Virus record (IMG/VR): IMGVR_UViG_3300001097_000004
Location: 10,664-74,663 of that record
DNA from: a virus
DNA length: 64,000 nucleotides
Reading direction: 5' to 3' (one strand)
Both the position numbers and the translations under genes were made by a program. Below are positions 16,227 to 44,792 of the stretch, one piece after another. The notes under the pieces are model-generated. The model saw nothing but the letters and a program-made list of their open reading frames with translations, made no database searches and was not told the DNA's origin. Position 1 is the stretch's first letter. The number at the start of each line of letters is the position of its first letter.

Positions 16227-16841
16227 CTATTCGTCGGAATTGTTGTCTGACTCGGAGTCTTCCGTGTCAGGCTCAGCGGACTCGTACTGCTCTGCATCTG
16301 ATACTGTGACAAAATTCTTGTCGTACTGCTCGATAAAGGCTTGGGCCTTCTCGGGGTCGATAAAGATTGCTTCCATGTCTTGGTGAGTCTCATCAGTTGG
16401 GGAGAGGCCAACCCAGTCTCCATCGGTACGGACATAACGTCCGGAGTCGTTGGCGTAGACAAGTCCTACGATGTAAGCTGAGTCTCCCAGCGCGTAAGCC
16501 ACAAGGCTCTCGGGGTGATTAATTTTGTCTCCTTCTTTTGCAAGGCTTCGTAGGGCTTCTACTGGCAAGTCAGTTTTGAATGACGACAACCAGAGTCCGT
16601 CAGGCTCCCGAAAAAGGCGAACCCTGTAGGTGGTGTCTGCGGACTTAAACTCTAGTCTAGCAGTTTTTTGGTCTACTGTTATATCATGAGCCTTAAATGA
16701 CTCGTCTGGGCCGGTCACCGCACTGACGGTCACCGAGGTCTTCCCGACGAGCGTCACCTTCAAGGTTACTACAGGTTGGGCCCCTTCGGAGGTTAAGACC
16801 CCTAGTCCTGTGAACAGGGGGTACGTGTTAGCTTTTACCAT
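16227..16841 (-). CDS. Hypothetical head-region protein
   Basis: 204-aa ORF overlapping the end of the giant ORF, co-oriented. Confidence 0.75.
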   Translation of the reverse strand: MVKANTYPLFTGLGVLTSEGAQPVVTLKVTLVGKTSVTVSAVTGPDESFKAHDITVDQKTARLEFKSADTTYRVRLFREPDGLWLSSFKTDLPVEALRSLAKEGDKINHPESLVAYALGDSAYIVGLVYANDSGRYVRTDGDWVGLSPTDETHQDMEAIFIDPEKAQAFIEQYDKNFVTVSDAEQYESAEPDTEDSESDNNSDE

Positions 16842-29497: not shown

Positions 29498-29507
29498 GTA
29501 TAGGTCC

Positions 29508-29813
29508 TTAGTTGCTGAGTTTTTGGTCGAGGATTCCGACCATAGTGGATAATGCAAGAAGTGTGCATCCGATAAGGGTGGGCACGGGTACCAGCAAGTA
29601 CAATACTAGCACAACTGCGGCGATCCAGAAGCCCAAACACCAGTAGCAGGTGAGCAGATAGCCTATGCGTGTGCTCTCCGGGGGGAATTTGTTCCAAAAA
29701 CGGGCTCTGAGACCGGAAAACAAGGTATCTTCTATGGCCAAACGACAGAGTCTGTAGATGGCCAGGGCCAGAATAATGAGGTAGACAGGGTTGAAATAGG
29801 GGGTAAAATCCAT
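29508..29813 (-). CDS. DUF1360-like membrane protein
   Basis: LA.YRL.RL..ED, YLLTCYWCLGFW; hydrophobic helices. Confidence 0.75.
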   Translation of the reverse strand: MDFTPYFNPVYLIILALAIYRLCRLAIEDTLFSGLRARFWNKFPPESTRIGYLLTCYWCLGFWIAAVVLVLYLLVPVPTLIGCTLLALSTMVGILDQKLSN

Positions 29814-30842: not shown

Positions 30843-31526
30843 ATGGGCGTGAAGTACTTTTTGGATCGGGAGGGGTCCCTCTGGGCGCAAAAGACTGAGG
30901 AGACCTATACATGTGTCACCGAACCCTATAAGGAGACTTCTGAGGCGTGGGGGCCTCTAACGGAACTTGTGCCTAAGGGCTCAGAGGATGTGGACTCTGA
31001 GGAGCCGTCAAGCGTGGTAACCGAACGGGATGTGGACGGAACTGTCGTAGTCACTAAGACATACACGTCCGGAAGCGCATCCCCGGTCATTGGAGGGGTA
31101 TTAGTGTCGTACACAGCCTCAGGGTATCCTACTGGGGTTGTAGGTGATCCCGGAGCTACAGGTGTTGCTGGTGTGGAGTCTACGTGGCCGTTCCCGCCTC
31201 CGGAGGTGGGCCCGGTATATCCGGAGCCGAAGAGCAAAATGAGAAAGAAAAATAACACATCCTTCCGCCAGATTCGCAAAGCTGAGCAAGATAGACGCAA
31301 GCAAGCCGAGGGCCGAATTCAGAGACCTTTGATAGGGTTTGACCCGGCAGGCCCTGCGGAATCAGCCGTTGTGATGTTGCCCGACGGACGAATCACTCCT
31401 GTATCGGAGGGATTTAAGTGGGACGGGTCTAAGCCCGGAGCTAGCGAACTCGGAACGTACCGAGCCCTGGACGTGGACGGCGTGCGGTCGGGTCCATCTG
31501 GATACGGCGAGACGCAACGGACTTAG
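30843..31526 (+). CDS. Hypothetical protein, antisense to the structural operon
   Basis: 227 aa; N-terminal D.EG..W...WGPLTEL motif recalled from small actinophage proteins; overlaps the terminase 3' end. Confidence 0.55.
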   Translation: MGVKYFLDREGSLWAQKTEETYTCVTEPYKETSEAWGPLTELVPKGSEDVDSEEPSSVVTERDVDGTVVVTKTYTSGSASPVIGGVLVSYTASGYPTGVVGDPGATGVAGVESTWPFPPPEVGPVYPEPKSKMRKKNNTSFRQIRKAEQDRRKQAEGRIQRPLIGFDPAGPAESAVVMLPDGRITPVSEGFKWDGSKPGASELGTYRALDVDGVRSGPSGYGETQRT

Positions 31527-34056
31527 CCTGGATGGAACCTCCAGTGAAGCCCTTCGGTGGCTTAATGAGGAGGGCGGTTAGGGCGTGCACGAGTGCGTCC
31601 ACGCGGTCAGGGGATTTGGATGAAAGCTCGGGCATCCACGTAGTCATCTGGGTCTCCAGGTCACCGAGGACGTTGAGGTGGTGGACACGCCTCTGGGTGT
31701 AGGCCAGCGTAATCGGCTCGGCGCGGAGCTTCTTACCCTGCTTGGAGAAGACCTCTAGGACTGTGATGGAGGGGTCGATCTGGTGGATAGCGTTGCGCAC
31801 GAGGGCACCACCTTGGTTGACCTCTGCCACAACGGGGCACTGCCAGCGGCGGGCCGCATCTACAACGACCTGCGCCCACGCGGTTGGTGAGCCCTTGATA
31901 GAGAGGTCTTCGATAACCCACGCGTTACGGCGGTAGAGGTCCGGCTCGTTCGTGGAGCCAACGACAACAATTCCGCACTCGTCCTTGGGGTTCTCCGCAA
32001 CGGAGGGGTCAACCCCAACCAGACGTAGTGGTGTGAACGGGGGCTTCAAGGACATGTAGCGAGCATCCGTAATCATCTCGTCCGTCCAAAGGGCCCCATC
32101 GATGGCATCCAACATCTCTCCGAAGAGTTCTTGGCGAGCCTGTTGGGAGCCGTGCCCGAACTGAGCTTCTAGAGAGTTTAGATAGGCGGCACCAAGGTTT
32201 CCGGCGTTGTCGTACGTGGAACCACGGCGTAAGAGTACGCGTCCGGTCTTCTTCTCCTCCTCTAGAAGATCAAAGAGAACAGGGACACGCTTGGGAGTCG
32301 TAGTAGCAATGATCTGCGGGTTCTTGCCTAGACGGGTGGCTACTCGGAGATTTTGCCATGCGGTCATACCTGCCTTATCCGGGGTCAGTCGCCAGGCTGC
32401 GATCTCATCGGCCCAGCTGTAGGAATTAGCTGTGGGAATAAGGCCCTCACCGGCGAGGAAAAGATGGTTTGGAGAGTCTACAGTAATGCAGCGAACATCT
32501 CGCGCAGGAATCAGATCGACAGACCTAATAGTTCGAGTAAAATTAGCCCGAGAGTTTCTAGGCACAAACCTCTCAACCTTTCGAGGTAGGGTGACCAGAG
32601 AGACATCCGAGTATACGTGCACATACCATGATGGCTTCGTGGGAACATCATATCTGTAGTTGTCTGGCTTAGAGTACACACGAGGGATAAGACCAAGACT
32701 TCTGCAGAGACGGACATAGCCATCAACAAGGCTCTTGTTGGTGTTGAAGAAACGAAATGCACCGTCATCCTCTACACCGCCGTCTGAGTCGGTAAGCCCC
32801 TGAACTAGCGCCAACCTATCTTCGTAGGAGGACATAAAGAACTCCTCGGGGATGAACTTCGCTGTGTCCCACACCTTAGTGATACCTAGGGCAGCAATCT
32901 TATGGTTTTTACGTTCTCTGGCTGGATAACCCAGTTCTGTGAGCTTTTCTACTGTAAAATCGATGTCCTCTGCGTTGGAGGCAATAGTGCCGGGTTGTCG
33001 TGTGGCTCCATCTCCTAGAACGAGACCCAGCACCCAAGGATGTAGAGGAAGTTTTAGGGCGTAGGGCTCTGATGGGATATTTAAGGCCGGAGACGCTGGA
33101 ATCTGATGACGACTGGATATTGTTTTAGCAATCTCAGATGTAGTTTTTACCGTAGAGGGGTATCCCGGTACTGTGCCAGTTTTGAACTTGTTTCTCCAGT
33201 ACTTAACCTGCTTGATAGAGACACGAGCCGTCTGCATAATTTTCGTTTTAGTGTCCCCTTGAGCGGTCATCTCATAGATGAGTCGTTGTTGTGCTGGAAT
33301 TATTGAATCTTTACGAGTGAATGTGGGCTCATAGCTGGCCCATGTGGGAACAATGATCTGCCTACCATGGATGCGATCTAGCCGAGATGTGTCCACAGCA
33401 GTTAGCGTGGGCCAGAGGTGGTTACCGTCTGCGTCAATATATGTGCCGTCTGAGAAGGAGATTCGATAGAGAGATTCGGCCCGCTGGATAGGGTGAATTC
33501 TAGTTACGCGGGATGGGAGGCCTCTCTCATCAAAGACATAATCCTCCGTGGTGGTGTCACGCATAGTTGTCCACCCTCTGGTAGTGAGAATGGGGGTATC
33601 AAGAGCAAGCGGAGCCTGTGGGCCACGGAGTGAGTCCGGCTCGTCAGCGGTAGTGATAAAGGCCGAGTTGCCGTTCGGCCAGATCAGCTCACGGATAGAG
33701 GGCTTATACTCTGGTCGCTCAGAGGGTGGGGAGACCGCGAGGATTCCACTTTCTCCCGAAACCATAACCTGACGCGCATCGGCTGCGGTACGGGCAACGA
33801 GAAGGAAGCGTAGACGACCCTCATTGGTCTTCTTGGCCTTCTCTCTGATCCACTCAGCCGCTGCGCGGGTCTTGCCCGATCCTCTTCCAGCCAAGTATAC
33901 ACCTATATCGAAAGACTCGTCGTCAGGGAACTGCTGCTCAGGGCGACCGAAGAAGCTCCAGTCCCAGACTAGGGCTTCAGGATCGAGACCTCGGAGGGCT
34001 TCATCCCGCTCATCGGGGGGCAGGAGCGCAACCTGCTCTGCTAGTGAAAGGGCCAT
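31441..34056 (-). CDS. terL: Terminase large subunit (intein-containing)
   Basis: Walker A AGRGSGKT, LRGPQ..W.DE Walker B, TTTPK, nuclease VGVDP..DECGIVV, SPDRVDAL. Confidence 0.95.
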   Translation of the reverse strand: MALSLAEQVALLPPDERDEALRGLDPEALVWDWSFFGRPEQQFPDDESFDIGVYLAGRGSGKTRAAAEWIREKAKKTNEGRLRFLLVARTAADARQVMVSGESGILAVSPPSERPEYKPSIRELIWPNGNSAFITTADEPDSLRGPQAPLALDTPILTTRGWTTMRDTTTEDYVFDERGLPSRVTRIHPIQRAESLYRISFSDGTYIDADGNHLWPTLTAVDTSRLDRIHGRQIIVPTWASYEPTFTRKDSIIPAQQRLIYEMTAQGDTKTKIMQTARVSIKQVKYWRNKFKTGTVPGYPSTVKTTSEIAKTISSRHQIPASPALNIPSEPYALKLPLHPWVLGLVLGDGATRQPGTIASNAEDIDFTVEKLTELGYPARERKNHKIAALGITKVWDTAKFIPEEFFMSSYEDRLALVQGLTDSDGGVEDDGAFRFFNTNKSLVDGYVRLCRSLGLIPRVYSKPDNYRYDVPTKPSWYVHVYSDVSLVTLPRKVERFVPRNSRANFTRTIRSVDLIPARDVRCITVDSPNHLFLAGEGLIPTANSYSWADEIAAWRLTPDKAGMTAWQNLRVATRLGKNPQIIATTTPKRVPVLFDLLEEEKKTGRVLLRRGSTYDNAGNLGAAYLNSLEAQFGHGSQQARQELFGEMLDAIDGALWTDEMITDARYMSLKPPFTPLRLVGVDPSVAENPKDECGIVVVGSTNEPDLYRRNAWVIEDLSIKGSPTAWAQVVVDAARRWQCPVVAEVNQGGALVRNAIHQIDPSITVLEVFSKQGKKLRAEPITLAYTQRRVHHLNVLGDLETQMTTWMPELSSKSPDRVDALVHALTALLIKPPKGFTGGSIQAKSVASRRIQMDPTARRPRPGLGTFRVR
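32425..33612 (-). mobile_element. Class 3 intein with LAGLIDADG homing endonuclease (396 aa)
   Basis: Starts PLALDTPILT; block B HLW, block F VRCITV, block G PTAN|S; LAGLIDADG-like VLGLVLGDG and LVQGLTDSDG. Removal restores LRGPQASYSWADE. Confidence 0.9.
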
Positions 34057-34902: not shown

Positions 34903-35368
34903 GCTAGGCAACTATCGGCATCACGGTTGGCACCGGGCCTAAGGGTTATCGGCATGTAGCTACGCTCTACAGATATTGATCGTAGCGTGAACTATAGGTG
35001 AGCTTCACCGCATCGACTGGGTTACGCGTGAAAGTCTCAACGTCACCCGTTGACGTGTTGCCAAGGATGCCAACCATTCTCACGGCAGTAAACACTACGT
35101 CACCGCATGAGTCCGCGACCGCCGAGCTACGCGCCAACCATCGCTGTGAGCCTGTAAGAAATTCATCATCTTCAATGATGTCCGCATACTCTACTGTGTG
35201 TGCCACGGTGTCTCCCGACTTGATCCCCATCTGGTGGAGGTAGTTCCTACTATACATGACCCGCGACACGATTGCAACTCTTGTACCGCGACACGCCCGA
35301 GATTCGTGAGAGTTGACTCTCACCCCCTAAGCATGTAAGCTAAAGCTAACCGATTGAAAGGGGACACA

Positions 35369-35593
35369 ATGTCTCACACAAACACTGTAAGCCACGAGCT
35401 AGCCGAGTGGACTACTGCCGAGTTGCAACTCCGCTATGACGTGCTCACCGAGTTAGGCGCACCATACGGCCCCGGGGACATTGACAGCTACCTGCGCCGA
35501 CTGGATACAGCGATGTGTGGCTGTGGGGACGAGTACCCCTGCGAGGTTGATAGCTCACGCGCCATTGATATCGAGCTAGGCTCACGCGCCTAA
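35369..35593 (+). CDS. Hypothetical early protein
   Basis: TTGACT-N17-TAAGCT promoter (35313-35341), RBS GAAAGGGG, downstream hairpin. Confidence 0.8.
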   Translation: MSHTNTVSHELAEWTTAELQLRYDVLTELGAPYGPGDIDSYLRRLDTAMCGCGDEYPCEVDSSRAIDIELGSRA

Positions 35594-35799
35594 GGCCTAA
35601 GACATGCGCCCCGGGGTAGTTGACCGGGGCGTTAGTCTTGCCCGGGGTACTCTCACGCGCCAACACGCGCCTAAGCCCTTAGACGGCCACACAGCGAACG
35701 ACACGCCCGGGATTCACGAGAGTTGACACGACACTCGCAATACGATAGTCTTACATTGTAAGCAGTTGATAACTCCACACAGACAGAAATGAGACTCTC

Positions 35800-36021
35800 A
35801 TGACGACAGCGACCATCGTAGGCATCACCGGTCAGGCAGACAACCTCTTCGCAACTGGAACTAAGTCCGGGGGCATCAAGGTGAAGACCAGCGATAAAGG
35901 TCTCGCCCGTAACATCGCTCCTAGCACAGTCCAGAATAAAGGTGGATTCCTCGCAACACTCGACAACATCTACCTCAACGGCCAGAACGGCACCTATTAC
36001 CACTCGATCATTCTCAACTAA
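35800..36021 (+). CDS. Hypothetical early protein
   Basis: TTGACA-N17-TAGTCT promoter (35723-35751), downstream hairpin. Confidence 0.8.
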   Translation: MTTATIVGITGQADNLFATGTKSGGIKVKTSDKGLARNIAPSTVQNKGGFLATLDNIYLNGQNGTYYHSIILN

Positions 36022-36216
36022 ACTCAATGCCCCTCAGCTTTCACAGTGTGGGGCGTTAGTTGTTTCCAGGGGCAACTCCACGCCGAGCACTCCTAAGCCG
36101 TTAGCGAGACACACAGCACCACAGGACACGCTGAGAGTCAAGGGTTGACATGCACGCGCCTACCATGTACACTTTAACTATAGCCCCAAGGTGGGGCAGA
36201 TTGAGAGACAACCACC

Positions 36217-36450
36217 ATGGCTCACGTCAACACGCGCCCATCGCGCACGAGCACCTATGCGCTCCCATACCCGGGGCAGGTGGAGTCAGACCCGGCCCTA
36301 GGCGATATCGTAAAGGTTCTGTCCGGCGATCTCCGGGGAGACTTCGGGATAGTCCAGAATTACGTGTTAGGTTCTGTCAAACCCTATGAAATTCTAGTAG
36401 GCCACACCTCGCACTACTTTAGCGCACCGCAACTCTTGCCGGTTATCTAG
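36217..36450 (+). CDS. Hypothetical early protein (KOW/SH3-like)
   Basis: TTGACA-N17-TACACT promoter (36145-36173); GDIVKVLSG..RG..G.V pattern. Confidence 0.7.
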   Translation: MAHVNTRPSRTSTYALPYPGQVESDPALGDIVKVLSGDLRGDFGIVQNYVLGSVKPYEILVGHTSHYFSAPQLLPVI

Positions 36451-36541
36451 ACCAGCACGACACGCGCCCCGGCTCACACGAGCGCGGGGCGTTAGTCGTT
36501 CCCCAGGCGATCTGCCCGGACACTGAGAATTTCCGAGTCCC

Positions 36542-37102
36542 TTACGCGGTCGCCCGGTTCCCGGACTTGATAGGTGTGTAGACTTTAGACTCTCCTGTAG
36601 CCGGGGACTTAAGCCCGTATCTGGCAAGTCTGAACCTTAACGCGCCGTGAGTGACACCTAGTCTTTTAGCTAGTCTATACATTGGTACCCCATCTGTCAA
36701 GTGCACGTCTGCCACCAGATTAGTGTACTCCTCAGCTTCTTCACGATACAGTGGCGAATTAGCTCGCACTTGCTGCGCCAGTGGTTGCAGCTCCAGCATG
36801 CGCTCAAGCTTCACCGGGTCAGGCTCCACGAACACGCGGGGCGACTTCACTGGCTTAGCCGGGGGCATGGGCAGCGGGAACTCCGCTAGGCTCACTGTAG
36901 AGTCCACGAATGTAGAGTCTGCCACGATCTGCCGGATACGCTCGCGCGTTACGCCTGCCGAGTTGGAGATAGACTGTAGTGTCCAGCCCTGCGCACGTAA
37001 CGCAGTAGCGTAATCGTCACGCGCATCATTGTCAAGTTCTGAGAATTTCTCATCCACCTCGACCGGTAGGGTCAGGCGAGTCTTACGATATTCAATATCC
37101 AT
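36542..37102 (-). CDS. Double helix-turn-helix DNA-binding protein (sigma70 region-4-like)
   Basis: GWTLQSISNSAGVTRERIRQI and GVPMYRLAKRLGVTHGALRFRL. Confidence 0.8.
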   Translation of the reverse strand: MDIEYRKTRLTLPVEVDEKFSELDNDARDDYATALRAQGWTLQSISNSAGVTRERIRQIVADSTFVDSTVSLAEFPLPMPPAKPVKSPRVFVEPDPVKLERMLELQPLAQQVRANSPLYREEAEEYTNLVADVHLTDGVPMYRLAKRLGVTHGALRFRLARYGLKSPATGESKVYTPIKSGNRATA

Positions 37103-37216
37103 GTTAGTTTGTCCTTGTACGTGTCCCGCACAACTCTACTCTAACACAATATACTTCAACCCGCAAGCCCAGACAGAAATACCCCAGACCAATTAGCCCG
37201 GGGCACTTCTATAATC

Positions 37217-37570
37217 CTATGAGCCGGACATCGCGACCGGGGCCATATTCTCCAGCAGCGTGTGCACGTACTCTGTCAGCCCGAGAGTTTCGCCCTCTAA
37301 GTCAACGCCACCGGTCAGCAGCACGTCACCCTCAATGGTGCCTGTGCCTTGTCCATAGACCATCGACCACAAATGTGTCGCCACTGTGTTGTGGTCAAGC
37401 CCGATCAGCTTGCCCTCTTCGTTGACGTACATGTCAAGGTCACGACTCAGTGAGACACACTCAATGTATCCACCTACCGCATCTTGCATGACGTTCAGTG
37501 AGGAATCCCCACTGTCAAGATCAACTACGACCTGCTCGCCCGAGACCTTAATCTGTAGTGCTTTACGCAT
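37217..37570 (-). CDS. DUF3846-like protein
   Basis: MQDAVGGYIE..L...MYVNEEGK..L..N..AT...I.GDVLLTG; start MRKAL with AAGGAG RBS. Confidence 0.8.
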   Translation of the reverse strand: MRKALQIKVSGEQVVVDLDSGDSSLNVMQDAVGGYIECVSLSRDLDMYVNEEGKLIGLDHNTVATHLWSMVYGQGTGTIEGDVLLTGGVDLEGETLGLTEYVHTLLENMAPVAMSGS

Positions 37571-37630
37571 CTTGCGCTCCTTCGTTGTTGGTATTACCAG
37601 AGTACCAGCAGCTAGCGCGTATGTCAAACT

Positions 37631-38092
37631 CTAAGGAACAATATTAACATTCGGGTCGCCCTCGAACATCTTTTCAATCTGCTCTAGCGTAAAGTCGCCC
37701 GAGTAGTTGTTAGCATTTTGCCACTTCTTGGTAGCATTAGCCGTAAGTGCTCCGAACTTCCCGCCATGGTCGGAAGCAGCCTCAGAGAAACCAGCGTCAG
37801 CTAGTGCACGTTGCAGGTGCAGCACAGATAGTGACTTGCGCCTAGCGTCCCGCTTGTTCAACTGCGAGATCAGCACGTCGTCCGTGAACTTGCCCGAGAC
37901 TACGAACTCCTTGCGGATACGGGGGCGCGACTTCTGTGCTGCGGGCGCGGGCGTGGGAGCGGTAGCAGTCTCGACCTTCTCAGTCTCGACTTCCACAGTC
38001 TTCTTGCTCTCCTTCGCGGGAGCAGCAGGGGACTTGGAATTTTTCTTGTCCTCCGGGGCCTCAGCAGCCGGGGCGTTCTTGTTCTCATCCAT
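37631..38092 (-). CDS. Peptidoglycan-binding-domain-like protein
   Basis: VLHLQRALADAGF...GKFGALTANATKKWQ after a disordered N-terminus. Confidence 0.6.
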   Translation of the reverse strand: MDENKNAPAAEAPEDKKNSKSPAAPAKESKKTVEVETEKVETATAPTPAPAAQKSRPRIRKEFVVSGKFTDDVLISQLNKRDARRKSLSVLHLQRALADAGFSEAASDHGGKFGALTANATKKWQNANNYSGDFTLEQIEKMFEGDPNVNIVP

Positions 38093-38136
38093 AGCAATAT
38101 CTTACCACAGCTTCGCAGGGGGTAGTGCCCGTATGG

Positions 38137-38505
38137 TTAGTCTATCATGTGCGCGACCAGTTTGTCAAATGTGATTGTCTCCACCCGTAGCACGTGTCGC
38201 ATGTCGTACGTGGCTTGATTCTTTCCGATTCGTGTCTCTGAGCGGGGCACAGCGACCAATGCCACGACGTAGCCTAGCTTTTCAAGCATGGACATGATAG
38301 CGGGCTGTCCGAACCAGCGCAATAGCGCACCCGGGGACTCGAACGCGAATCGGTCACTCCAGCCAACCATGGGGATGCCATCATCGTATGGGGCTGGGTG
38401 AATGTCCTTGTGTGTACGATACGTGCCAACCATAGCAGCCTCCTTATAGGGGCCTAGACCAGAGTCACAGTGTTGTACTCGGTAGAGCAGAATAGGGTTA
38501 TCCAT
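38137..38505 (-). CDS. Hypothetical protein
   Basis: Leaderless promoter TTGACA-N17-TAGACT-N6-ATG. Confidence 0.8.
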   Translation of the reverse strand: MDNPILLYRVQHCDSGLGPYKEAAMVGTYRTHKDIHPAPYDDGIPMVGWSDRFAFESPGALLRWFGQPAIMSMLEKLGYVVALVAVPRSETRIGKNQATYDMRHVLRVETITFDKLVAHMID

Positions 38506-38528
38506 AGCCCTAGTCTACAGCATATGAG

Positions 38529-38699
38529 CTACGGTGTCAAGTTCAGCAGCGCGATAGTCCCAGCACCGACTACCAGCACACCCGCAAGCGCGAGCAGGCT
38601 ACCAGACAGCACCGCAAGCACGATACCAGTCACGACCATAGCGAGCGCAAGCACAGCGAGCCAGTTAACCGAGCGCGTAAACATGAGGATTCTATTCAT
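38529..38699 (-). CDS. Small two-helix membrane protein (56 aa)
   Basis: MNRILMF...WLAVLALAMVVTGIVLAVLSGSLLALAGVLVVGAGTIALL; AAGGA RBS, ATGA overlap with the upstream gene. Confidence 0.7.
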   Translation of the reverse strand: MNRILMFTRSVNWLAVLALAMVVTGIVLAVLSGSLLALAGVLVVGAGTIALLNLTP

Positions 38700-38848
38700 T
38701 TCTTGTCCTTAGGTGGTGAGACTACCCCTAGCAGCGGTTCCAGCTTACGCGCACGCCTACGGGATAGGTACTCTAGCAGGGCGATGTACGCAGCGAATGC
38801 CGTAGCGAGCCCAGCGATTACCAGCAGCACGGCGAGGATAGGATTCAT
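38696..38848 (-). CDS. Small single-helix membrane protein (50 aa)
   Basis: MNPILAVLLVIAGLATAFAAYIALL..RRRARK; TAGACT-N6-ATG. Confidence 0.7.
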   Translation of the reverse strand: MNPILAVLLVIAGLATAFAAYIALLEYLSRRRARKLEPLLGVVSPPKDKK

Positions 38849-38912
38849 GCCCCGAGTCTAACACAGAAACGGCCTACCCGCAAGGGGCAAGCCGTATCCT
38901 GTTCAGCCGGGG

Positions 38913-39248
38913 TTAGCCGTTGACAAATACCTCCGAGTGTGCTACGCCTTGACGCGTCAGGAACGACTTGATCGGTGTGTACAGCTTGCGCAGCTCCGCG
39001 CTCGATATGTCAGTCTCCGGGCGACTGCGCTCAGGGTAGCTCATGTAGCACACCCGCACAGTCTCCTGTAGGCGCGTTGACGCGTTGCTAGGCTTGCGCC
39101 AATATGCCCAGCCGTCACTAATGCTATTCGACCAGTCCATAAGTCGCCACAGCGTCATAACGGCAGCTTGCAGGTTAGGGCGGTGAAAGTCCTCGCACGC
39201 GTCACGCGCAGCGTTCTCTATCTCGCACTCGTTCAGGATGAATGCCAT
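38913..39248 (-). CDS. Hypothetical protein
   Basis: Start MAFILN with GAAAGGAG RBS; W...SDGWAYW.KP motif; PafBC-like promoter upstream. Confidence 0.8.
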   Translation of the reverse strand: MAFILNECEIENAARDACEDFHRPNLQAAVMTLWRLMDWSNSISDGWAYWRKPSNASTRLQETVRVCYMSYPERSRPETDISSAELRKLYTPIKSFLTRQGVAHSEVFVNG

Positions 39249-39351
39249 GGGGCACTCCTTTCTGTGGTTGTTAGTTCTAGTGTAGCACACTCTACCGACA
39301 AACACAAACGGCCTACCCCGTAGGGTAAGCCGTCAGCGTTGATCTAAGGGG

Positions 39352-39591
39352 TTAGAGTGGGCCATTCACCCAGTCATAGACGGAACGATCTAAATGACGC
39401 GGCTCTCGCACGCGCCCCTTGCCAGCAGGGTGGTTAGCCTTGCTACGCAGCAGGTCGGCGTACGCAGCACGCGCAGCGACTTTCTCCCGGTGAGTCTTCA
39501 ATGCCGACGCGACCAGCAGCAGCACGATTCCGAGTGCAAACACGTAGGCGAGCAGTGTGGTTCCCGGTGTGGTGGCGATGAGTTCAAGCAT
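39352..39591 (-). CDS. Small membrane protein
   Basis: GAAGGA RBS; one TM helix then a basic tail; own promoter. Confidence 0.75.
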   Translation of the reverse strand: MLELIATTPGTTLLAYVFALGIVLLLVASALKTHREKVAARAAYADLLRSKANHPAGKGRVREPRHLDRSVYDWVNGPL

Positions 39592-39631
39592 GTTGTCCTT
39601 CTCTCTGGTTGGTGGTTCCAACTCTAGCAGG

Positions 39632-39751
39632 TCATTCCGTTCCTGTCAAGCGGGTTATGAGTGCAGCGACTGCCCAGATAACCGGCAGCACTACAATGAA
39701 TCCGCTCGCACCGTAGGCGGTGAACGCTACGATGGTGGTGAGGATGGTCAT
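39632..39751 (-). CDS. Small hydrophobic protein (39 aa)
   Basis: MTILTTIVAFTAYGASGFIVVLPVIWAVAALITRL; AGGGAG RBS; own promoter. Confidence 0.65.
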   Translation of the reverse strand: MTILTTIVAFTAYGASGFIVVLPVIWAVAALITRLTGTE

Positions 39752-39806
39752 GGTGTCTCCCTTGCTTGTTACTGCAAGCTTACCATGATACCCGCAACCT
39801 GTCAAG

Positions 39807-39950
39807 TCACTCTTTGAATGTCGGCACTTTCTTCTTCGGGGGCTCTATCTTGACTGTTCTCTTATATTCTTTGCGGGGGTTTTCTGTCGGACTCTTAAAC
39901 AAAATTAGCCCGACGATGAAGATACACATTGCGATATAGGCGATACTCAT
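39807..39950 (-). CDS. Small membrane protein (47 aa)
   Basis: MSIAYIAMCIFIVGLILF then a Lys-rich tail; TTGACA-N17-TAGACT-N6-ATG. Confidence 0.7.
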   Translation of the reverse strand: MSIAYIAMCIFIVGLILFKSPTENPRKEYKRTVKIEPPKKKVPTFKE

Positions 39951-39997
39951 CCCTATAGTCTATCAGCTCGACACCTTGATGTCAAGTCTCTAACGGC

Positions 39998-40118
39998 GAA
40001 TGCCCCGACACAGTTCACGATGTCGGGGCACTCTCAACCGAGAGTAGCAGGGGAGTCAGGTTTCGCCGGGGTCTTACGCCCTTGTTAGAGCTACCCAATC
40101 AGGCCAACTTCCCTACTA
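39998..40118 (-). ncRNA. Candidate structured small RNA
   Basis: Promoter TTGACA-N17-CAGAAT, no ORF; 15-bp closing stem 40104-40118 with 40045-40059, internal hairpins, terminal GC hairpin. Confidence 0.55.
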
Positions 40119-40180
40119 ACTACTATTCTGCCACCTATCCGCTCGCTTGTCAAGTCCTAAGATTCCCGGGCGTGTCGGAA

Positions 40181-40399
40181 CTACCCCACAAACTGCACCA
40201 GCTCGTCATACAGCTCATCAGTACGCTCCCGCGATAGCTTTGCGATCTCCAGCATGGCGGTATACATCTCCGCAGCGAGTGCTCCTGTAGTGGCTCCCAG
40301 TACCGGATGATTGCGTATCACAGTGTCCAATACTGCCATATCCGCACCGAGCAGGGCATCCATATCCGCACCGAGCGGGGCATCTTGTAAAGGTTCCAT
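40181..40399 (-). CDS. Hypothetical protein
   Basis: Leaderless promoter; internal LGADM duplication. Confidence 0.7.
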   Translation of the reverse strand: MEPLQDAPLGADMDALLGADMAVLDTVIRNHPVLGATTGALAAEMYTAMLEIAKLSRERTDELYDELVQFVG

Positions 40400-40542
40400 G
40401 CCTACAGCCTATACTCTATATGCTCGATTGTCAAGTCGGCGGGCGCAGTACCGGGGACTTGGAATTTCTGCCCCGGGGGATAAAAAAATCACCGAATAAG
40501 GGAGACTATACGTCATCCCTTATCCGGGTGGTGTTTGGTACG

Positions 40543-40713
40543 CTATGCAGCGTAACGGGCGATCTCTGCCCGCTTAACCGCTTGGCGCGATCTCTCGCGC
40601 TTGGGGCGATTGTCCCATGGCGTGGCCGCTCCAGACCGGCGACGTTCCCGGTCAGCTTGTGCAAGCTCCGGGTTCTCGTGACGGTGGCGCTTGGTGTTCT
40701 CCTTGTTGGTCAT
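40543..40713 (-). CDS. Small basic protein
   Basis: MTNKEN...RRRSGAATPWDNRPKRERSR; TACACT-N6-ATG. Confidence 0.75.
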   Translation of the reverse strand: MTNKENTKRHRHENPELAQADRERRRSGAATPWDNRPKRERSRQAVKRAEIARYAA

Positions 40714-40752
40714 GATACTAGTGTAGCACACCGCTCGCCCGGTGTCTACTCT

Positions 40753-40986
40753 CTAGAAGAAAATATCCTTGGAATAGTCCCGGTCGCATCCGGGGCATAT
40801 CCACGCGAACGTGGCGCACGCATGGTCACCGTAGAGTTCTCCCTCTACGTCTCCACCAGAGAATGTGCAGCTATCCCGTAAGTAGTCGCACGCGTCAACG
40901 TGGCGCGTCTCGTCTCGCTCGTAGTCGTCTCCCGCGATCTGTGTCTCATTACCACTCACGCCAGGGGGAAAATTTGAAAGTGTCAT
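40753..40986 (-). CDS. Small Cys-rich protein
   Basis: SNFPPGVSG.E..IAG N-terminus, WICPGC; GAAGGA RBS. Confidence 0.75.
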   Translation of the reverse strand: MTLSNFPPGVSGNETQIAGDDYERDETRHVDACDYLRDSCTFSGGDVEGELYGDHACATFAWICPGCDRDYSKDIFF

Positions 40987-41082
40987 GCTGTCCTTCTTTC
41001 TGGTTGATGCTCTAAGCCTACACCATACCCCAGACAAACACAATACCCCCGGCAAACTATCTACCGGGGGCGTGTCTCGCGT

Positions 41083-41334
41083 CTAGAGAAACACGTGCAG
41101 GTGTAGTTGACTGATTGCGTCCTCCGCAGACACTACGCGCCCATTAGGCAGCTCCAGCGACGCGTCCCAGTCCTCCTGTTGAGCTAGTCGGATAGCCTCG
41201 ACCGCGAACGGGTGGAAGTCCGAATGAACCGGGGGATAGCAGTTCGTGAGCAGGTGTGCAGATACCGCCGTGGCAAGTGAGATTGCCCCATCCTGAGCCG
41301 ACTCCGCGTATGCTTGTGCAGTTGAGAAACCCAT
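41083..41334 (-). CDS. Hypothetical protein
   Basis: MGFSTA..., HL..NCYPPV motif; GAAAGGA RBS; own promoter. Confidence 0.8.
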   Translation of the reverse strand: MGFSTAQAYAESAQDGAISLATAVSAHLLTNCYPPVHSDFHPFAVEAIRLAQQEDWDASLELPNGRVVSAEDAISQLHLHVFL

Positions 41335-41553
41335 GTGAGTTTGTCCTTTCTGGTTGATAGTTCCTATCCTACACTGTATCCGGCAGGATGTCAAATCCGA
41401 ATATGAGACTCCGAGTGTGGTCGCGCTTGTCGTCACGCAAGTCCGGGAGGCCGGGCGCAAGGGACTTGGAATTTCTGTTTGGGCCGACAAAAACGCCCCA
41501 ATAGACTAGAGTGTCTACCGGGGCGTTTCGCCTAGCACCTTTCTATTAGATTA

Positions 41554-41739
41554 TCAACTCAGAGCGTAAATCTTTTCAGCCAGTTCAGGGTAGCCGTAGC
41601 CGTCTAGCGTGTCCGCGAACGTGTCTTTGTCCATGCCATAGCTTTCAATACCGGAAGTTATTGCTGACGCGTCATACGGGTCAATGGCAAAATCTTGTAC
41701 CCAGCCCTTGAGCCTTTTGATGATCGCTGTTCTGGTCAT
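41554..41739 (-). CDS. Hypothetical protein
   Basis: 61 aa; CAACCAGAAAGG leader. Confidence 0.75.
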   Translation of the reverse strand: MTRTAIIKRLKGWVQDFAIDPYDASAITSGIESYGMDKDTFADTLDGYGYPELAEKIYALS

Positions 41740-41964
41740 GATGTCCTGCCTTTCTGGTTGATAGTATCAACGATACACTATCCCCGGCGATAGTGCAAGG
41801 GGCAGTTTAGAGCTTGTGTGCCTCGTAGAGAGCTTGACACTACGCCCGGCAATTGGTACCCCGGAATGAGCCACGCGCCCCGTAGAGCGCATCCTGTCGC
41901 GTGCATGCGTATAGGGCACAGAAAGCGAGGCATCCCGTAGGATGCCCCGCGATCTTGATATGCC

Positions 41965-42312
41965 CTAGAGCACCTTGATGAATGAGTAGGGAGTTGACGT
42001 AAACGTTGCAGCGTACGCTTCTGGCCATGCAGCAGCAAGAGTCTTTGAGTCCACCTTGCCATTGCTTGAATGCTGAACCTTGACGGCCTTGATGCCACGA
42101 ATTACGGCCTCTTCTGCCCCGTTCAACTCTTCCAGTAGGATAGGCGCAACGATTGTCTTGCGACGAGCAGCAGCTTCTACCCCGGCTTTCTCGATGGCCT
42201 TGAGTTCCTTGAGTTCCGCAAGGGCTTCCAGAGCGCGAGCGTTCTTCGACCAGTTGATTACGCCGTCCTTGACGGGCGAAACTTGACCGGCGGTGAGAGT
42301 GGAGATTGACAT
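41965..42312 (-). CDS. Coiled-coil protein resembling phage exonuclease-associated C-terminal domains
   Basis: ALAELKELKA.EK..., VDSKTLAAAWPEAY; GAAAGG RBS; RecA-NDp-like promoter. Confidence 0.65.
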   Translation of the reverse strand: MSISTLTAGQVSPVKDGVINWSKNARALEALAELKELKAIEKAGVEAAARRKTIVAPILLEELNGAEEAVIRGIKAVKVQHSSNGKVDSKTLAAAWPEAYAATFTSTPYSFIKVL

Positions 42313-42613
42313 AATGTGTAGCCTTTCAGTAGTTTGTCTCTGGCGTATTGCCTCGACTAAGAACAACCATACGCATACCCACTGACAAATGCAAATTAGC
42401 GTGTTTCCCGGGCGTGTCGGAATTGCGTCCTCTCTCCACGCACGCACCCGCACGCACCCGCACGCGATTATCCCAGACCGCATGCGTTCTGTCAAGTCCC
42501 AATTCGGGGGGTAGCTCGGCAGGGCGTGCCACAATTTCCAAGTCCCTGGCGGGGGACAAAAAAATACCCCCGCTAGTGGATACCAGCGGGGGCGTTCCCT
42601 TTGACCTTTCTCG

Positions 42614-42823
42614 TTATTTGATGTAAACGACTTTGGTGAGCCGGGCGTATCGTAACATGACGGATGCTCCAGTCCTGTCCGCGTCCTGCTTGTTTATGTA
42701 TCTACCCATATCAGGGCCGAATGTGGCGATCACGAAATCCTTGCCAGCGTTCCACGCGTCACGTACAGACTTGACTGTTGTATAATCCTGCCCGTAGGCC
42801 GGTGTGCACTCTAACGTGTCCAC
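42614..42823 (-). CDS. Hypothetical protein
   Basis: PAYGQDY...W..GKDF...GRYINKQD; own promoter. Confidence 0.75.
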   Translation of the reverse strand: MDTLECTPAYGQDYTTVKSVRDAWNAGKDFVIATFGPDMGRYINKQDADRTGASVMLRYARLTKVVYIK

Positions 42824-42899
42824 TTGATTCTCACTTTCTGTTTGGTTGATATCTCTATCCTAAACTCTAAGGTCGCAGCGTGTCAAATCCTGTTTGATG

Positions 42900-43067
42900 T
42901 TACTTAGCCCACCCGCATTTTGAGCAAACTCCCGAAACAATGCTACCCTCACGACGCTTACCAGTAACTGATGAAAAAGTCAAGCAAGGGTCAATATCGG
43001 CGTGTTCTGAGCACAACATTGTTGTTACCGAGCCGTCTTGGTGTTTGGCACATGCACAATTACGCAT
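42900..43067 (-). CDS. Small Cys-rich protein
   Basis: GGAGG RBS; CAC..C..C..CSKCGW. Confidence 0.65.
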   Translation of the reverse strand: MRNCACAKHQDGSVTTMLCSEHADIDPCLTFSSVTGKRREGSIVSGVCSKCGWAK

Positions 43068-43167
43068 TTTGGGCCTCCATAAGTTTGTGGTGTGTGTGTG
43101 TTGTAAGTCAATTATAAGCATACACTGCCCGGGAAGTCAAATCTTGTGTTTCCCGGGCGTGTCACGC

Positions 43168-43647
43168 CTAGTTGCTGCGTACCCACTCGAACGCATATCG
43201 TGAGTCAAACACGCCCGAATTGTACATCCTACAGCATGCCCCGCATGCTATGGAGTGCGATGGTCGTCGTGCTTTGTGGGCGGTTGTTTTGCATATCTGG
43301 CACGTTGCAGTCCATGGCATCGGTGGCTGTATAACGTTACCCCCGTATGTACGCTTTCCGTCGCACCCGATATCCTTGGCGACTCTCTGCCACTCGCGCC
43401 CGTGTCCTGTACCCGGCGTGAGCGCGTGAGCTATCTCGTGTAGGATTGTGTCCTGAGTATTCATCCACGGATTGACTGCCGTGAGCTTACGGCTGATCGT
43501 GATTGTCTTGTCATGGTGGCGACATTGCCCGTAACGCCTGACTGCGTTGTCGTATCCGATACCCCAGTCTTGCAGTCCGTGAGAGTTCATCAACTCACGC
43601 GCCTTAGCCAGCGTGTCGCGTAGCAGAGTGTCGGTATCGTTTAGCAT
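43168..43647 (-). CDS. SprT-like zinc metalloprotease
   Basis: G.C, DTILHEIAHAL, HG..W, two CxxC pairs. Confidence 0.9.
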   Translation of the reverse strand: MLNDTDTLLRDTLAKARELMNSHGLQDWGIGYDNAVRRYGQCRHHDKTITISRKLTAVNPWMNTQDTILHEIAHALTPGTGHGREWQRVAKDIGCDGKRTYGGNVIQPPMPWTATCQICKTTAHKARRPSHSIACGACCRMYNSGVFDSRYAFEWVRSN

Positions 43648-43767
43648 TGTGGTTGTCCTGTCTGGTTATGGTGTACATCCATTATACACACACCAGAGAT
43701 TATTTGTCAAGTGTGTTCTTGCCGTCAAATATTGTGTTTCCCGGGCGTATCGGAACTGTACCCTCGG

Positions 43768-44171: not shown

Positions 44172-44792
44172 TCAAACCGACACGTCGTGATTGTCCCACG
44201 CGCCCACTGCCCAGTAGCGTCCGCGCCATGTTGTCCATGTTACCGCTTGTGTTTGCCCCGCTGTAAATGTCTGCCCGTATTCCTTGGATAGAATTGTGGC
44301 AGCACGCTCATACATGGCTGTAATCGTGGCGTAGAGTCCTTTAGAGATGCCGGGGCGTGTCGCGTCGGTGTGGCGCGTGTTCACTGCGATATCGTACGCA
44401 TGACGGTCTACCGTGAGCCCAAACTCCCCGCGAGTAAGGATGGAGAGGTAAAAGTTCTTCACTTTCTGCCCCCCGATAACCGCATCCGGGGACTCCCCCA
44501 GAATCAAGCGATTGGCTTTAGCAATGTTGGCGGGGAGTCCACCCGTAGTTAGGGTACCCTTGCCTTCGATCACGCGTGCGCTCAAATTGATATTGTTCCC
44601 CCACGCATTCATGGGAGACAGTACAGCAATGACTGCCACTACAGTGTCCACCCGCAAGCCATGCTTGACTGCCAGAGCGTCAGCAATGGCGTACGCGTCA
44701 GAGTACCATTGACCAGCAGTAGCTATCTGGTACGCGTCAGCGGTGCGGAATACTCTAGTTATATTCCTAACTGAGGGGATGTGGTTGGTCAT
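44172..44792 (-). CDS. Helix-hairpin-helix / DNA-glycosylase-like phage protein
   Basis: G.WY, AVIAVLSP...W..N, G.KV.NF, TVDRHA, QAVTW motifs. Confidence 0.65.
   Translation of the reverse strand: MTNHIPSVRNITRVFRTADAYQIATAGQWYSDAYAIADALAVKHGLRVDTVVAVIAVLSPMNAWGNNINLSARVIEGKGTLTTGGLPANIAKANRLILGESPDAVIGGQKVKNFYLSILTRGEFGLTVDRHAYDIAVNTRHTDATRPGISKGLYATITAMYERAATILSKEYGQTFTAGQTQAVTWTTWRGRYWAVGAWDNHDVSV

What the first reader, a model, noticed from the sequence alone, without database searches (positions are those of the whole stretch)
35289..43752. CGACACGCCCGGGA box at fixed 18-19 bp spacing upstream of -35: possible hijack of WhiA/WhiB-type activation
GACAC lies 18 nt before the -35 hexamer at 35290, 35700, 40172 and 43159, 19 nt at 42414, and a GATAC variant is 18 nt before TTGACG at 43747. 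This holds on both strands. Known: actinobacterial WhiA recognises GACAC upstream of SigA promoters. Inference: a promoter subset is coupled to a host (or phage) activator, potentially sensing cell-division state.
Basis: partly seen in the sequence, partly recalled or inferred. Interest (0 to 1): 0.7.

Follow-up and report, generated by a model that had tools for sequence, protein, structure and literature searches.

The report
Host ribosomal-promoter box on phage promoters
Six promoters of an uncultured actinobacterial phage carry, two DNA turns upstream, the 14-base box that marks the ribosomal RNA and ribosomal-protein promoters of its likely host family and matches the binding site of the host regulator WhiA, so the phage probably ties some early genes to the host's growth-control circuit.

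Summary
The box CGACACGCCCGGGA occurs six times with at most one mismatch, about 0.02 expected by chance. Each copy lies 10-11 nt upstream of a sigma-A -35 hexamer and is oriented with its promoter. Only 6 of about 50 early promoters have it.

The window is a fragment of a large phage related to Microbacterium phages. Big4, a relative with no nucleotide similarity, has three exact boxes before promoters, and nine IMG/VR contigs have one each.

New here: the same box at the same spacing is the upstream element of rRNA operon promoters in Microbacteriaceae (14 of 20 unbiased 16S upstream regions), Demequina and Propionibacteriaceae. It also sits in their rpsJ promoters. Its core matches the published WhiA motifs GACACGCC and GAYACRCY, and the WhiA recognition helix is identical in Microbacteriaceae and Streptomyces.

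Best reading (0.6): host WhiA, with a WhiB partner, acts on phage promoters that copy host ribosomal promoters. The coupling is therefore more likely to growth state than to cell division.

There are no binding or RNA data. The spacing differs from sepX (18-19 nt against 10-12 nt), and the core promoters are already strong. This scan has reported WhiA boxes on other phage DNA before; the rRNA-promoter link is the addition.

The parts
35289..35341 (+). Boxed promoter 1: box 35289-35302 (one mismatch, GAGA), 10-nt spacer, -35 TTGACT 35313-35318, 17-nt spacer, -10 TAAGCT 35336-35341
35369..35593 (+). 74-aa Cys-rich ORF driven by promoter 1, followed by a hairpin; no Pfam or PHROG match
35699..35751 (+). 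Boxed promoter 2: exact box 35699-35712, 10-nt spacer, -35 TTGACA 35723-35728, 17-nt spacer, -10 TAGTCT 35746-35751
35800..36021 (+). 73-aa ORF driven by promoter 2; no family match
40125..40177 (-). Boxed promoter 3: exact box 40177-40164, 10-nt spacer, -35 TTGACA 40153-40148, 17-nt spacer, -10 CAGAAT 40130-40125
39998..40118 (-). ORF-less structured RNA unit of about 120 nt driven by promoter 3, ending in a terminator hairpin
   Evidence: no ORF; MFE -52.6 kcal/mol, z -4.05; no Rfam family
42366..42419 (-). Boxed promoter 4: exact box 42419-42406, 11-nt spacer, -35 TTGCAT 42394-42389, 17-nt spacer, -10 TATGGT 42371-42366
41965..42312 (-). 115-aa ORF driven by promoter 4. Its homologue in Big4 also follows an exact box (Big4 9772).
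   Evidence: (33% identity over 99 aa, E 6.5e-11)
43111..43164 (-). Boxed promoter 5: box 43164-43151 (T at position 1), 10-nt spacer, -35 TTGACT 43140-43135, 18-nt spacer, -10 TATAAT 43116-43111. An inverted partial copy of the box (TCCCGGGCAGTGT) lies in the spacer.
42900..43067 (-). 55-aa Cys-rich ORF driven by promoter 5; no family match
43681..43752 (-). Boxed promoter 6: box 43752-43739 (GATAC variant), 10-nt spacer, -35 TTGACG 43728-43723, 18-nt spacer, -10 AATAAT 43704-43699. An unboxed consensus promoter overlaps it in tandem (TTGACA 43710, TATAAT ending at 43681).
43168..43647 (-). 159-aa SprT-like metalloprotease (HExxH) driven by promoter 6
   Evidence: PF10263, E 4.6e-11; phrog_1006, E 8e-35

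Best explanation
The box is a binding site for a host transcription factor, most probably WhiA. Its C-terminal helix-turn-helix would read the GAYACRCY core. The homing-endonuclease-like domain or linker would lie on the CCGGGA half. A WhiB-type partner (host WhiB2 or the phage's own WhiB) would bridge to sigma-A region 4. The phage has not invented this element. It copies the composite 'box, 10-13 nt, -35' that forms the upstream half of rRNA operon promoters in Microbacteriaceae, Demequina and Propionibacteriaceae, and the same box sits in their rpsJ ribosomal-protein promoters. A subset of early transcription units (five small genes and one structured RNA) is thereby put under the signal that sets ribosome synthesis in the host. 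I expect these units to be most active in growing, energy-replete cells. Shown here: the box, its spacing, its conservation in other phages, its presence at host rrn and rpsJ promoters, and the identity of the WhiA recognition helix. Inferred: that WhiA binds it, that a WhiB partner is involved, and that the net effect is activation.
For: 1. Six boxes sit at fixed spacing and orientation, about 0.02 expected by chance.
2. Big4, a Microbacterium foliorum phage with 60% portal identity and no nucleotide match, has three exact boxes 10, 12 and 20 nt before -35 elements. Nine IMG/VR contigs of 47-71% GC carry the exact box plus a TTGAC promoter.
3. A scan of 185,579 species genomes for box-N9-12-TTGAC gave 68 loci, against about 17 expected by chance. 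About 45 are actinobacterial and about 30 share an rrn-type leader. All 8 tested with enough downstream sequence have 16S rRNA 425-604 nt downstream.
4. In Microbacteriaceae, 48 of 151 genomes have an exact match and there are no control hits. Of 30 loci, 28 are rrn promoters. In an unbiased sample, 14 of 20 16S upstream regions carry the box with at most 2 mismatches.
5. The same extended box lies in the rpsJ promoter in 5 of 5 host genomes, and GACACGCCCG lies upstream of rpsJ in 5 further actinobacteria.
6. Published WhiA motifs: Mtb ChIP-seq and in vitro IDAP-seq give GACACGCC, an earlier study gave CGACACGCCGn, and WhiA and WhiB2 both bind the Mtb rpsJ promoter (PMC13473873). The core GAYACRCY occurs in rpsJ promoters across Gram-positives and is bound by M. 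gallisepticum WhiA in EMSA and MST, with the second domain binding downstream of the core (PMC11701221).
7. The WhiA recognition helix (TKDAVAGRIRRLLAMADK, which includes the Lys that makes the base contact in Streptomyces venezuelae) is identical in Streptomyces and four Microbacteriaceae (PMC10243135).
8. All five related phages encode a WhiB protein.
Against: There are no binding, transcript or reporter data, and no RNA run holds this DNA. The gap from GACAC to the -35 is 18-19 nt here. It is 10-12 nt at the only structurally solved WhiA/WhiB promoter, seen here in a sepX-type promoter of a Streptomyces genome, and 7-8 nt at Microbacteriaceae rpsJ. The published view is only that spacing 'is variable'. 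The phage core promoters are near consensus and would probably fire without an activator. Conservation runs over 14 bp, beyond the 8-bp WhiA core, and known WhiA contacts downstream of GACAC are backbone-only. A second or different protein therefore cannot be excluded. The rrn link is limited to some lineages: 1 of 25 rrn upstream regions in a class-wide sample, although WhiA is universal in the class. No whiB gene lies in the 74.6-kb record, but the record is only 42% complete.
Confidence: 0.6

Rival explanations
1. The box is bound by another host factor dedicated to ribosomal promoters in Micrococcales and Propionibacteriales. Its resemblance to the WhiA core is then incidental or reflects only partial overlap. 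The phage still copies host rrn promoters, but the regulator is not WhiA.
For: The full 14-mer, not only the 8-bp core, is conserved in hosts and phages. In five host genomes the 9-mer at this spacing is found almost only at rrn promoters. The rrn box is lineage-limited although WhiA is universal. The spacing differs from sepX.
Against: The core matches motifs obtained with purified WhiA in two distant bacteria. The same extended box sits in rpsJ promoters, which are a documented WhiA/WhiB2 target. The recognition helix is conserved. No other actinobacterial factor with this motif turned up in the literature searches.
Confidence: 0.15
2. A phage-encoded or injected protein recognises the box. 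It would act on the phage's boxed promoters and on host rrn and rpsJ promoters at once, for example as an early-to-middle switch combined with shut-off of host ribosome synthesis. The phage WhiB could be part of it.
For: All five relatives encode WhiB. Only a subset of promoters is boxed, as expected for a temporal class. Boxes are gained and lost among orthologous genes in the two phages.
Against: The box is a native host element in genomes without the phage. Pumpernickel, Cece and DSL-LC01 encode WhiB but lack boxed promoters. No candidate DNA-binding protein is linked to the boxes in the record, and WhiB proteins are not known to read such a sequence themselves.
Confidence: 0.12
3. The boxes act mainly as decoys. 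High-affinity WhiA sites on replicating phage DNA would titrate WhiA away from host rRNA, ribosomal-protein and division promoters. Their position beside promoters would then be secondary.
For: There are several perfect sites per genome, and Big4 carries its three twice in its long terminal repeat. The host has only a few such sites.
Against: The strict spacing and orientation relative to the -35 in every copy is not needed for a decoy. Six sites are few.
Confidence: 0.08
4. The boxes have no function and are copies of one ancestral promoter cassette that duplicated within the phage.
For: Promoters 1 and 2, and promoters 4-6, share a few bases after the box.
Against: Outside the box, -35 and -10, the sequences differ. 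The same box and spacing recur in a phage with no nucleotide similarity, in nine other viral contigs and at host rrn promoters.
Confidence: 0.03

Closest known systems
WhiA/WhiB co-activated sigma-A promoter of Streptomyces venezuelae (sepX; cryo-EM complex, PMC10243135)
   Same: A GACAC word lies on the non-template strand upstream of the -35. The WhiA recognition helix is identical in the candidate host family. CCGGG follows GACAC in both.
   Different: The gap from GACAC to the -35 is 10-12 nt in the sepX-type promoter I recovered, against 18-19 nt here. sepX has a poor -35, whereas the phage promoters are near consensus. The target there is a cell-division gene.
Mycobacterium tuberculosis WhiA/WhiB2 regulon, motif GACACGCC (PMC13473873)
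   Same: The 8-bp motif is identical in five boxes and becomes GATACGCC in the sixth. Nine of ten positions match the earlier consensus CGACACGCCGn. That regulon includes the rpsJ ribosomal operon and replication genes, which are growth functions.
   Different: Those are host chromosomal targets. No phage promoters and no rRNA promoters are reported there, and the text I could read gives no spacing rule.
Mycoplasma gallisepticum WhiA site in the rpsJ promoter, core GAYACRCY plus a downstream auxiliary motif (PMC11701221)
   Same: All six boxes fit GAYACRCY, including the GATAC variant. The site is bipartite, with a second conserved half downstream of the core. It is linked to ribosome synthesis and energy state.
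   Different: There WhiA is a repressor that overlaps the promoter and senses ATP, and there is no WhiB partner. The auxiliary motif is GTTGT, not CCGGGA.
rRNA operon promoters of Microbacteriaceae, Demequina and Propionibacteriaceae
   Same: The 14-bp box is identical, 10-13 nt before the -35, in the same orientation.
   Different: The host promoters have -35 TTGSC and -10 GTAATGT and drive rRNA. The phage versions have TTGACA-type -35 hexamers and mostly drive small protein genes.
E. coli rrnB P1 upstream activation (UP element and Fis sites), and phage early promoters with UP elements (from my own knowledge)
   Same: A conserved element at about -45 to -60 of ribosomal promoters is reused by phage early promoters.
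   Different: UP elements are A/T-rich and are read by the alpha subunit's C-terminal domain. This box is G+C-rich and looks like a helix-turn-helix site.
Stoperators of cluster A mycobacteriophages (L5 gp71 sites; from my own knowledge)
   Same: An asymmetric 13-14-bp word is repeated in a phage genome and oriented with transcription.
   Different: Stoperators are phage-specific, number 20-30, lie within transcribed regions and are bound by the phage repressor. This box lies at a fixed distance upstream of -35 elements and is a native host promoter element.

Membership tests
WhiA/WhiB co-activated sigma-A promoter | WhiA core motif (GACAC; extended forms GACACGCC / GAYACRCY) upstream of the -35 | tested here: met
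   All six boxes fit: five GACACGCC and one GATACGCC, on the non-template strand. Motifs from PMC13473873 and PMC11701221.
WhiA/WhiB co-activated sigma-A promoter | Geometry that lets WhiB bridge WhiA to sigma region 4, as at sepX | tested here: inconclusive
   The gap is 18-19 nt here, 10-12 nt at a sepX-type promoter and 7-8 nt at Microbacteriaceae rpsJ. The steps between classes are about one helical turn (7-8, 18-21, 28 nt). The paper calls the spacing variable.
WhiA/WhiB co-activated sigma-A promoter | WhiA binds the site (EMSA, footprint or ChIP) | not testable with these tools
   No binding data exist for this phage or for Micrococcales.
WhiA/WhiB co-activated sigma-A promoter | Host encodes WhiA with the DNA-reading residues conserved | tested here: met
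   WhiA HTH is present in 5 of 5 candidate-host genomes. The recognition helix is identical to that of Streptomyces. The true host of this phage is unknown.
WhiA/WhiB co-activated sigma-A promoter | A WhiB-family partner is available | tested here: inconclusive
   No PF02467 match in the 74.6-kb record, which is 42% complete. All five related phages have one at 73-132 kb. Host WhiB2 was not examined.
WhiA/WhiB co-activated sigma-A promoter | Weak core promoter that depends on the activator | tested here: not met
   The -35 hexamers are TTGACA, TTGACT, TTGACG and TTGCAT, with usable -10 hexamers. Boxed promoters show only a non-significant trend to weaker -35 than unboxed ones (2 of 6 against 40 of 54 TTGACA, p = 0.06).
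Micrococcales-type rRNA operon promoter | 14-bp box CGACACGCCCGGGA 10-13 nt upstream of the -35, same orientation | tested here: met
   Phage spacers are 10-11 nt. Host rrn spacers are 10 nt (Demequina) and 11-13 nt (Microbacteriaceae).
Micrococcales-type rRNA operon promoter | Drives a stable RNA with an rrn leader | tested here: not met
   Five of six units are short protein genes and one is an ORF-less structured RNA. No rRNA, tRNA or Rfam family was found.
UP element (alpha C-terminal domain site) | A/T-rich sequence at -40 to -60 | tested here: not met
   The box has 11 G+C in 14 bases.
Phage repressor stoperator or operator array | Phage-specific word, absent from host promoters, bound by a phage protein | tested here: not met
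   The same word is a native host rrn and rpsJ promoter element.

The most novel reading that the evidence does not exclude
In Micrococcales and their neighbours the 14-bp WhiA-type box may be the main growth-state control element of ribosome synthesis, acting on rRNA and ribosomal-protein promoters alike, a role played by UP/Fis/DksA control in E. coli. Large lytic actinophages would have captured it. With their own WhiB they may redirect WhiA from host ribosomal promoters to a chosen set of early phage units, so that one element serves both as a sensor of host vigour and as a lever for host shut-off.
Probability: 0.2. Interest if true: 0.8.

Novelty: new variant of a known kind. Interest (0 to 1): 0.6.

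Why it matters
If this holds, it links three things. The first is an essential and still poorly understood actinobacterial regulator pair, WhiA and WhiB. The second is the control of rRNA and ribosomal-protein promoters in a large bacterial order; I found no paper that places a WhiA box at rRNA promoters. The third is phage early transcription. It offers a concrete reason why so many actinophages carry whiB genes. It also gives a testable model of how a lytic phage reads host growth state. A cultivable system is available, because Microbacterium foliorum phage Big4 has three perfect boxes. The box may also help predict hosts for uncultured actinophages and may be useful in designing strong promoters for Micrococcales.

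Tried and rejected
- N4-like phage: I suspected this from the 3557-aa ORF. PHROGs instead shows a helicase-bearing giant protein, and the portal matches actinophages.
- Nucleotide searches of the phage collection with 35-44 kb found nothing.
- No tRNA and no Rfam family in the region.
- No WhiB or WhiA gene in the record. The record is incomplete, so this says little.
- A class-wide sample of rrn upstream regions gave the box in only 1 of 25. I therefore dropped the idea that the box is a general actinobacterial rrn element. It is limited to some lineages.
- A larger host regulon with the 9-mer at this spacing: essentially only rrn promoters turned up.
- Homology of the RNA unit after promoter 3 with the region after Big4's boxes: none beyond the promoter.
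- Orthologous genes keeping the box in both phages: one of three pairs does.
- Differences between boxed and unboxed promoters in -35 quality, leaderless starts or TAGnnT -10 hexamers were not significant.
- Literature searches for the box word, WhiA with phage, WhiA with rrn, and mycobacterial rrn upstream activation found no description of this element at phage or rRNA promoters.
- No supplementary tables are held for the Mtb paper, so I could not check whether the rrs promoter is a ChIP peak.
- No RNA holder is listed for this DNA. The one DNA holder is a hypersaline lake metagenome that may be the source.


Full report
**What the window is.** The window is bases 10664-74663 of a 74,663-bp IMG/VR virus record that CheckV rates 42% complete. 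The one public run holding it is a hypersaline lake metagenome. G+C is about 54%. The portal protein (27809-29557, minus strand) is 59-63% identical to portals of the 186-195-kb Microbacterium phages Pumpernickel, Cece, Big4, A3Wally and Zooman, and 61% identical to that of Actinomycetia phage DSL-LC01. The host is therefore an actinobacterium, probably of the Micrococcales. The layout mirrors Pumpernickel. Structural genes run on the minus strand up to the terminase at 31441-34056. A short plus-strand cassette follows at about 34.6-36.45 kb. From 64 kb back to 36.5 kb there is a long minus-strand arm of small genes.

**The observation.** CGACACGCCCGGGA occurs with 0-1 mismatch at 35289(+), 35699(+), 40164(-), 42406(-), 43151(-) and 43739(-), and nowhere else in the record. 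The reversed control gives none. For 128,000 positions I calculate about 0.02 such matches by chance. GACAC alone is not enriched, with 181 matches against 172 expected. Each box is followed by 10 nt (11 nt at 42406), then a -35 hexamer (TTGACT, TTGACA, TTGACA, TTGCAT, TTGACT, TTGACG), a 17-18-nt spacer and a -10 hexamer.

**Only a subset of promoters is boxed.** The region from 34 to 64 kb holds about 50 convincing TTGACA/TAGnnT promoters, many of them leaderless, and only six carry the box. The boxed promoters each drive a short unit. These are ORFs of 74, 73, 115 and 55 aa, a 159-aa SprT-like metalloprotease, and one ORF-less RNA of about 120 nt that folds strongly, with z = -4.05.

**Conservation in other phages.** No phage in the collection matches this region at the nucleotide level. 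Even so, Big4 has three exact boxes at 8008, 9208 and 9772, repeated in its long terminal repeat. They lie 20, 10 and 12 nt before -35 elements. The gene after Big4's box at 9772 is a homologue of the gene after the box at 42406 here. Two other orthologous pairs have the box in only one of the two phages, so the element is gained and lost. Pumpernickel, Cece and DSL-LC01 have no boxed promoter. Nine IMG/VR contigs with 47-71% G+C carry the exact box followed by TTGAC and a -10 hexamer.

**The box is a host element.** A scan of one genome for each of 185,579 species for box-N9-12-TTGAC gave 68 loci. I expect about 17 by chance, and the roughly 20 non-actinobacterial hits look like chance hits in coding sequence. 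About 45 hits are actinobacterial: many Demequina, plus Rathayibacter, Glaciihabitans, a Microbacterium, Lumbricidophila, Propionibacteriaceae, Mycolicibacter and Streptomyces. About 30 share one promoter-plus-leader form and often sit at contig ends. All eight tested with enough downstream sequence have the 16S rRNA gene 425-604 nt downstream.

- In three host genomes the box with at most one mismatch occurs 6, 21 and 10 times, against 1, 2 and 3 for the control.
- In a sample of 151 Microbacteriaceae genomes, 48 have an exact match and there are no control hits. Of 30 loci, 19 lie 443-808 nt before 16S, 9 are at contig ends with the rrn leader, and 2 are something else.
- In an unbiased test starting from 16S genes, 14 of 20 usable upstream regions carry the box with at most 2 mismatches. 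The exceptions are mostly small, low-G+C genomes.
- A class-wide sample found it in only 1 of 25, so the rrn link is limited to some lineages.
- The host spacer from box to -35 is 10 nt in Demequina and 11-13 nt in Microbacteriaceae. In the phage it is 10-11 nt.

**Ribosomal-protein promoters.** In four Microbacteriaceae genomes the S10 (rpsJ) operon has GCGACACGCCCGGG directly abutting a -35 TTGCAG or TTGCGA, with an extended -10, about 360-400 nt upstream of the gene. One genome has a tandem second box inside the promoter spacer. In Demequina the box lies 87 nt before rpsJ and also before rpsL. GACACGCCCG also lies 100-190 nt before rpsJ in Streptomyces, a Propionibacteriaceae genome and three mycobacterial relatives.

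**Link to WhiA.** The evidence comes from three papers and one comparison made here.

- In M. tuberculosis, WhiA ChIP-seq and in vitro IDAP-seq with purified WhiA give GACACGCC. An earlier study gave CGACACGCCGn, and WhiB2 ChIP gives the same word. Both proteins bind the rpsJ promoter and activate growth genes (PMC13473873).
- A GAYACRCY core is conserved in rpsJ promoters across Gram-positive phyla, Actinobacteria included. M. gallisepticum WhiA binds it in EMSA and MST through its HTH domain, while the homing-endonuclease-like domain binds a second motif downstream (PMC11701221).
- All six phage boxes fit both motifs, the GATAC variant included.
- In S. venezuelae the HTH makes the base contact through Lys287 (PMC10243135). 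The helix carrying it, TKDAVAGRIRRLLAMADK, is identical in Streptomyces and four Microbacteriaceae.

**Geometry.** I recovered a sepX-type promoter from a Streptomyces genome using the two words the cryo-EM paper quotes. There GACAC lies 10-12 nt before the -35. At Microbacteriaceae rpsJ the gap is 7-8 nt. At rrn and phage promoters it is 18-21 nt, and at one Big4 promoter 28 nt. These classes differ by roughly one helical turn, which suits a factor that must face RNA polymerase from one side. The phage arrangement is nonetheless not the solved one.

**Mechanism proposed.** Host WhiA sits on the box two turns upstream of the -35. A WhiB protein on sigma region 4 connects it to RNA polymerase. 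The boxed units then follow the same growth signal as host ribosomal promoters. All five related phages encode a WhiB. By synteny with Pumpernickel, this record probably ends just before where that gene would lie. A phage WhiB acting at these promoters is possible but untested.

**Weak points.** There are no binding or transcript data. The core promoters are strong. Conservation of the CCGGGA half is not explained by known WhiA contacts. The host is unknown.

**Relation to earlier notes of this scan.** Several follow-ups on other phage DNA reached the same reading, host WhiA boxes on phage promoters, including one with the box two turns upstream of TTGACA. I tested the claim independently on this window. 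What this report adds is that the full 14-bp box, at this spacing, is the upstream element of host rRNA operon promoters and also sits in rpsJ promoters of the likely host family.

**Verdict.** The feature is real and non-random. It is a new variant of a known kind of promoter control. Interest is moderate to high because it can be tested directly in a cultivable phage-host pair.

Noticed in passing
window 39998-40118 (-): An ORF-less unit of about 120 nt lies between boxed promoter 3 and a terminator. It folds into a long closing stem plus two hairpins (MFE -52.6 kcal/mol, z -4.05, no shuffle as good). No Rfam family and no tRNA.
   Followed up: partly
window 36500-63400 (-): About 45 near-identical promoters (TTGACA, 17 nt, TAGnnT) occur, roughly one per small gene. 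Many have ATG 6-7 nt after the -10 hexamer, which points to leaderless mRNAs.
   Followed up: partly
window 43122-43134 (-): The spacer of boxed promoter 5 holds an inverted, imperfect copy of the box (TCCCGGGCAGTGT), so the -35 hexamer is flanked by an inverted repeat. The rpsJ promoter of Microbacterium sp. P05 likewise has a second box inside its spacer (L156). This may be a repressive second site.
   Followed up: no
window 44349-44362 (-): A box-like word with two mismatches (CGACACGCCCCGGC) lies inside the 206-aa ORF 44172-44792, with no promoter after it. It is probably chance or a decayed site.
   Followed up: no
window 42366-42350 (-); Big4 about 9250; locus L249: The first transcribed bases after boxed promoter 4 and after Big4's box at 9208 read GTTCTTAGTCG. 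A Microbacteriaceae rrn promoter reads GTTCTTACTCG at nearly the same place. This may extend the mimicry into the initial transcribed region, or it may be chance.
   Followed up: no
L060 and L066 (Mycolicibacter and relatives): The exact box, 9 nt, then TTGACC lies directly upstream of an M-box magnesium riboswitch (Rfam RF00380, 146 bits). The box is therefore not confined to ribosomal promoters in mycobacterial relatives.
   Followed up: no
L067, L085, L088 (three Streptomyces genomes): The exact box, 9 nt, then TTGACT lies upstream of a conserved gene that begins MRSGAKVA(I/V)VG. The gene was not identified.
   Followed up: no
L084 and L124: A Mycobacterium MAG contig and an IMG/VR viral contig share an identical boxed promoter region, so the element is also present in a mycobacterial phage or prophage.
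   Followed up: no
window 16835-27508 (-): A 3557-aa ORF between the portal and the head genes has a helicase domain (phrog_1967, E 6e-84). Relatives have equivalent giant genes. It is probably a packaged, injected protein.
   Followed up: no
Phage relatives: L229-L233: Each of the five related phages encodes at least one WhiB-family protein, and DSL-LC01 encodes three. In the Microbacterium phages the gene lies at 73-76 kb on the minus strand.
   Followed up: partly
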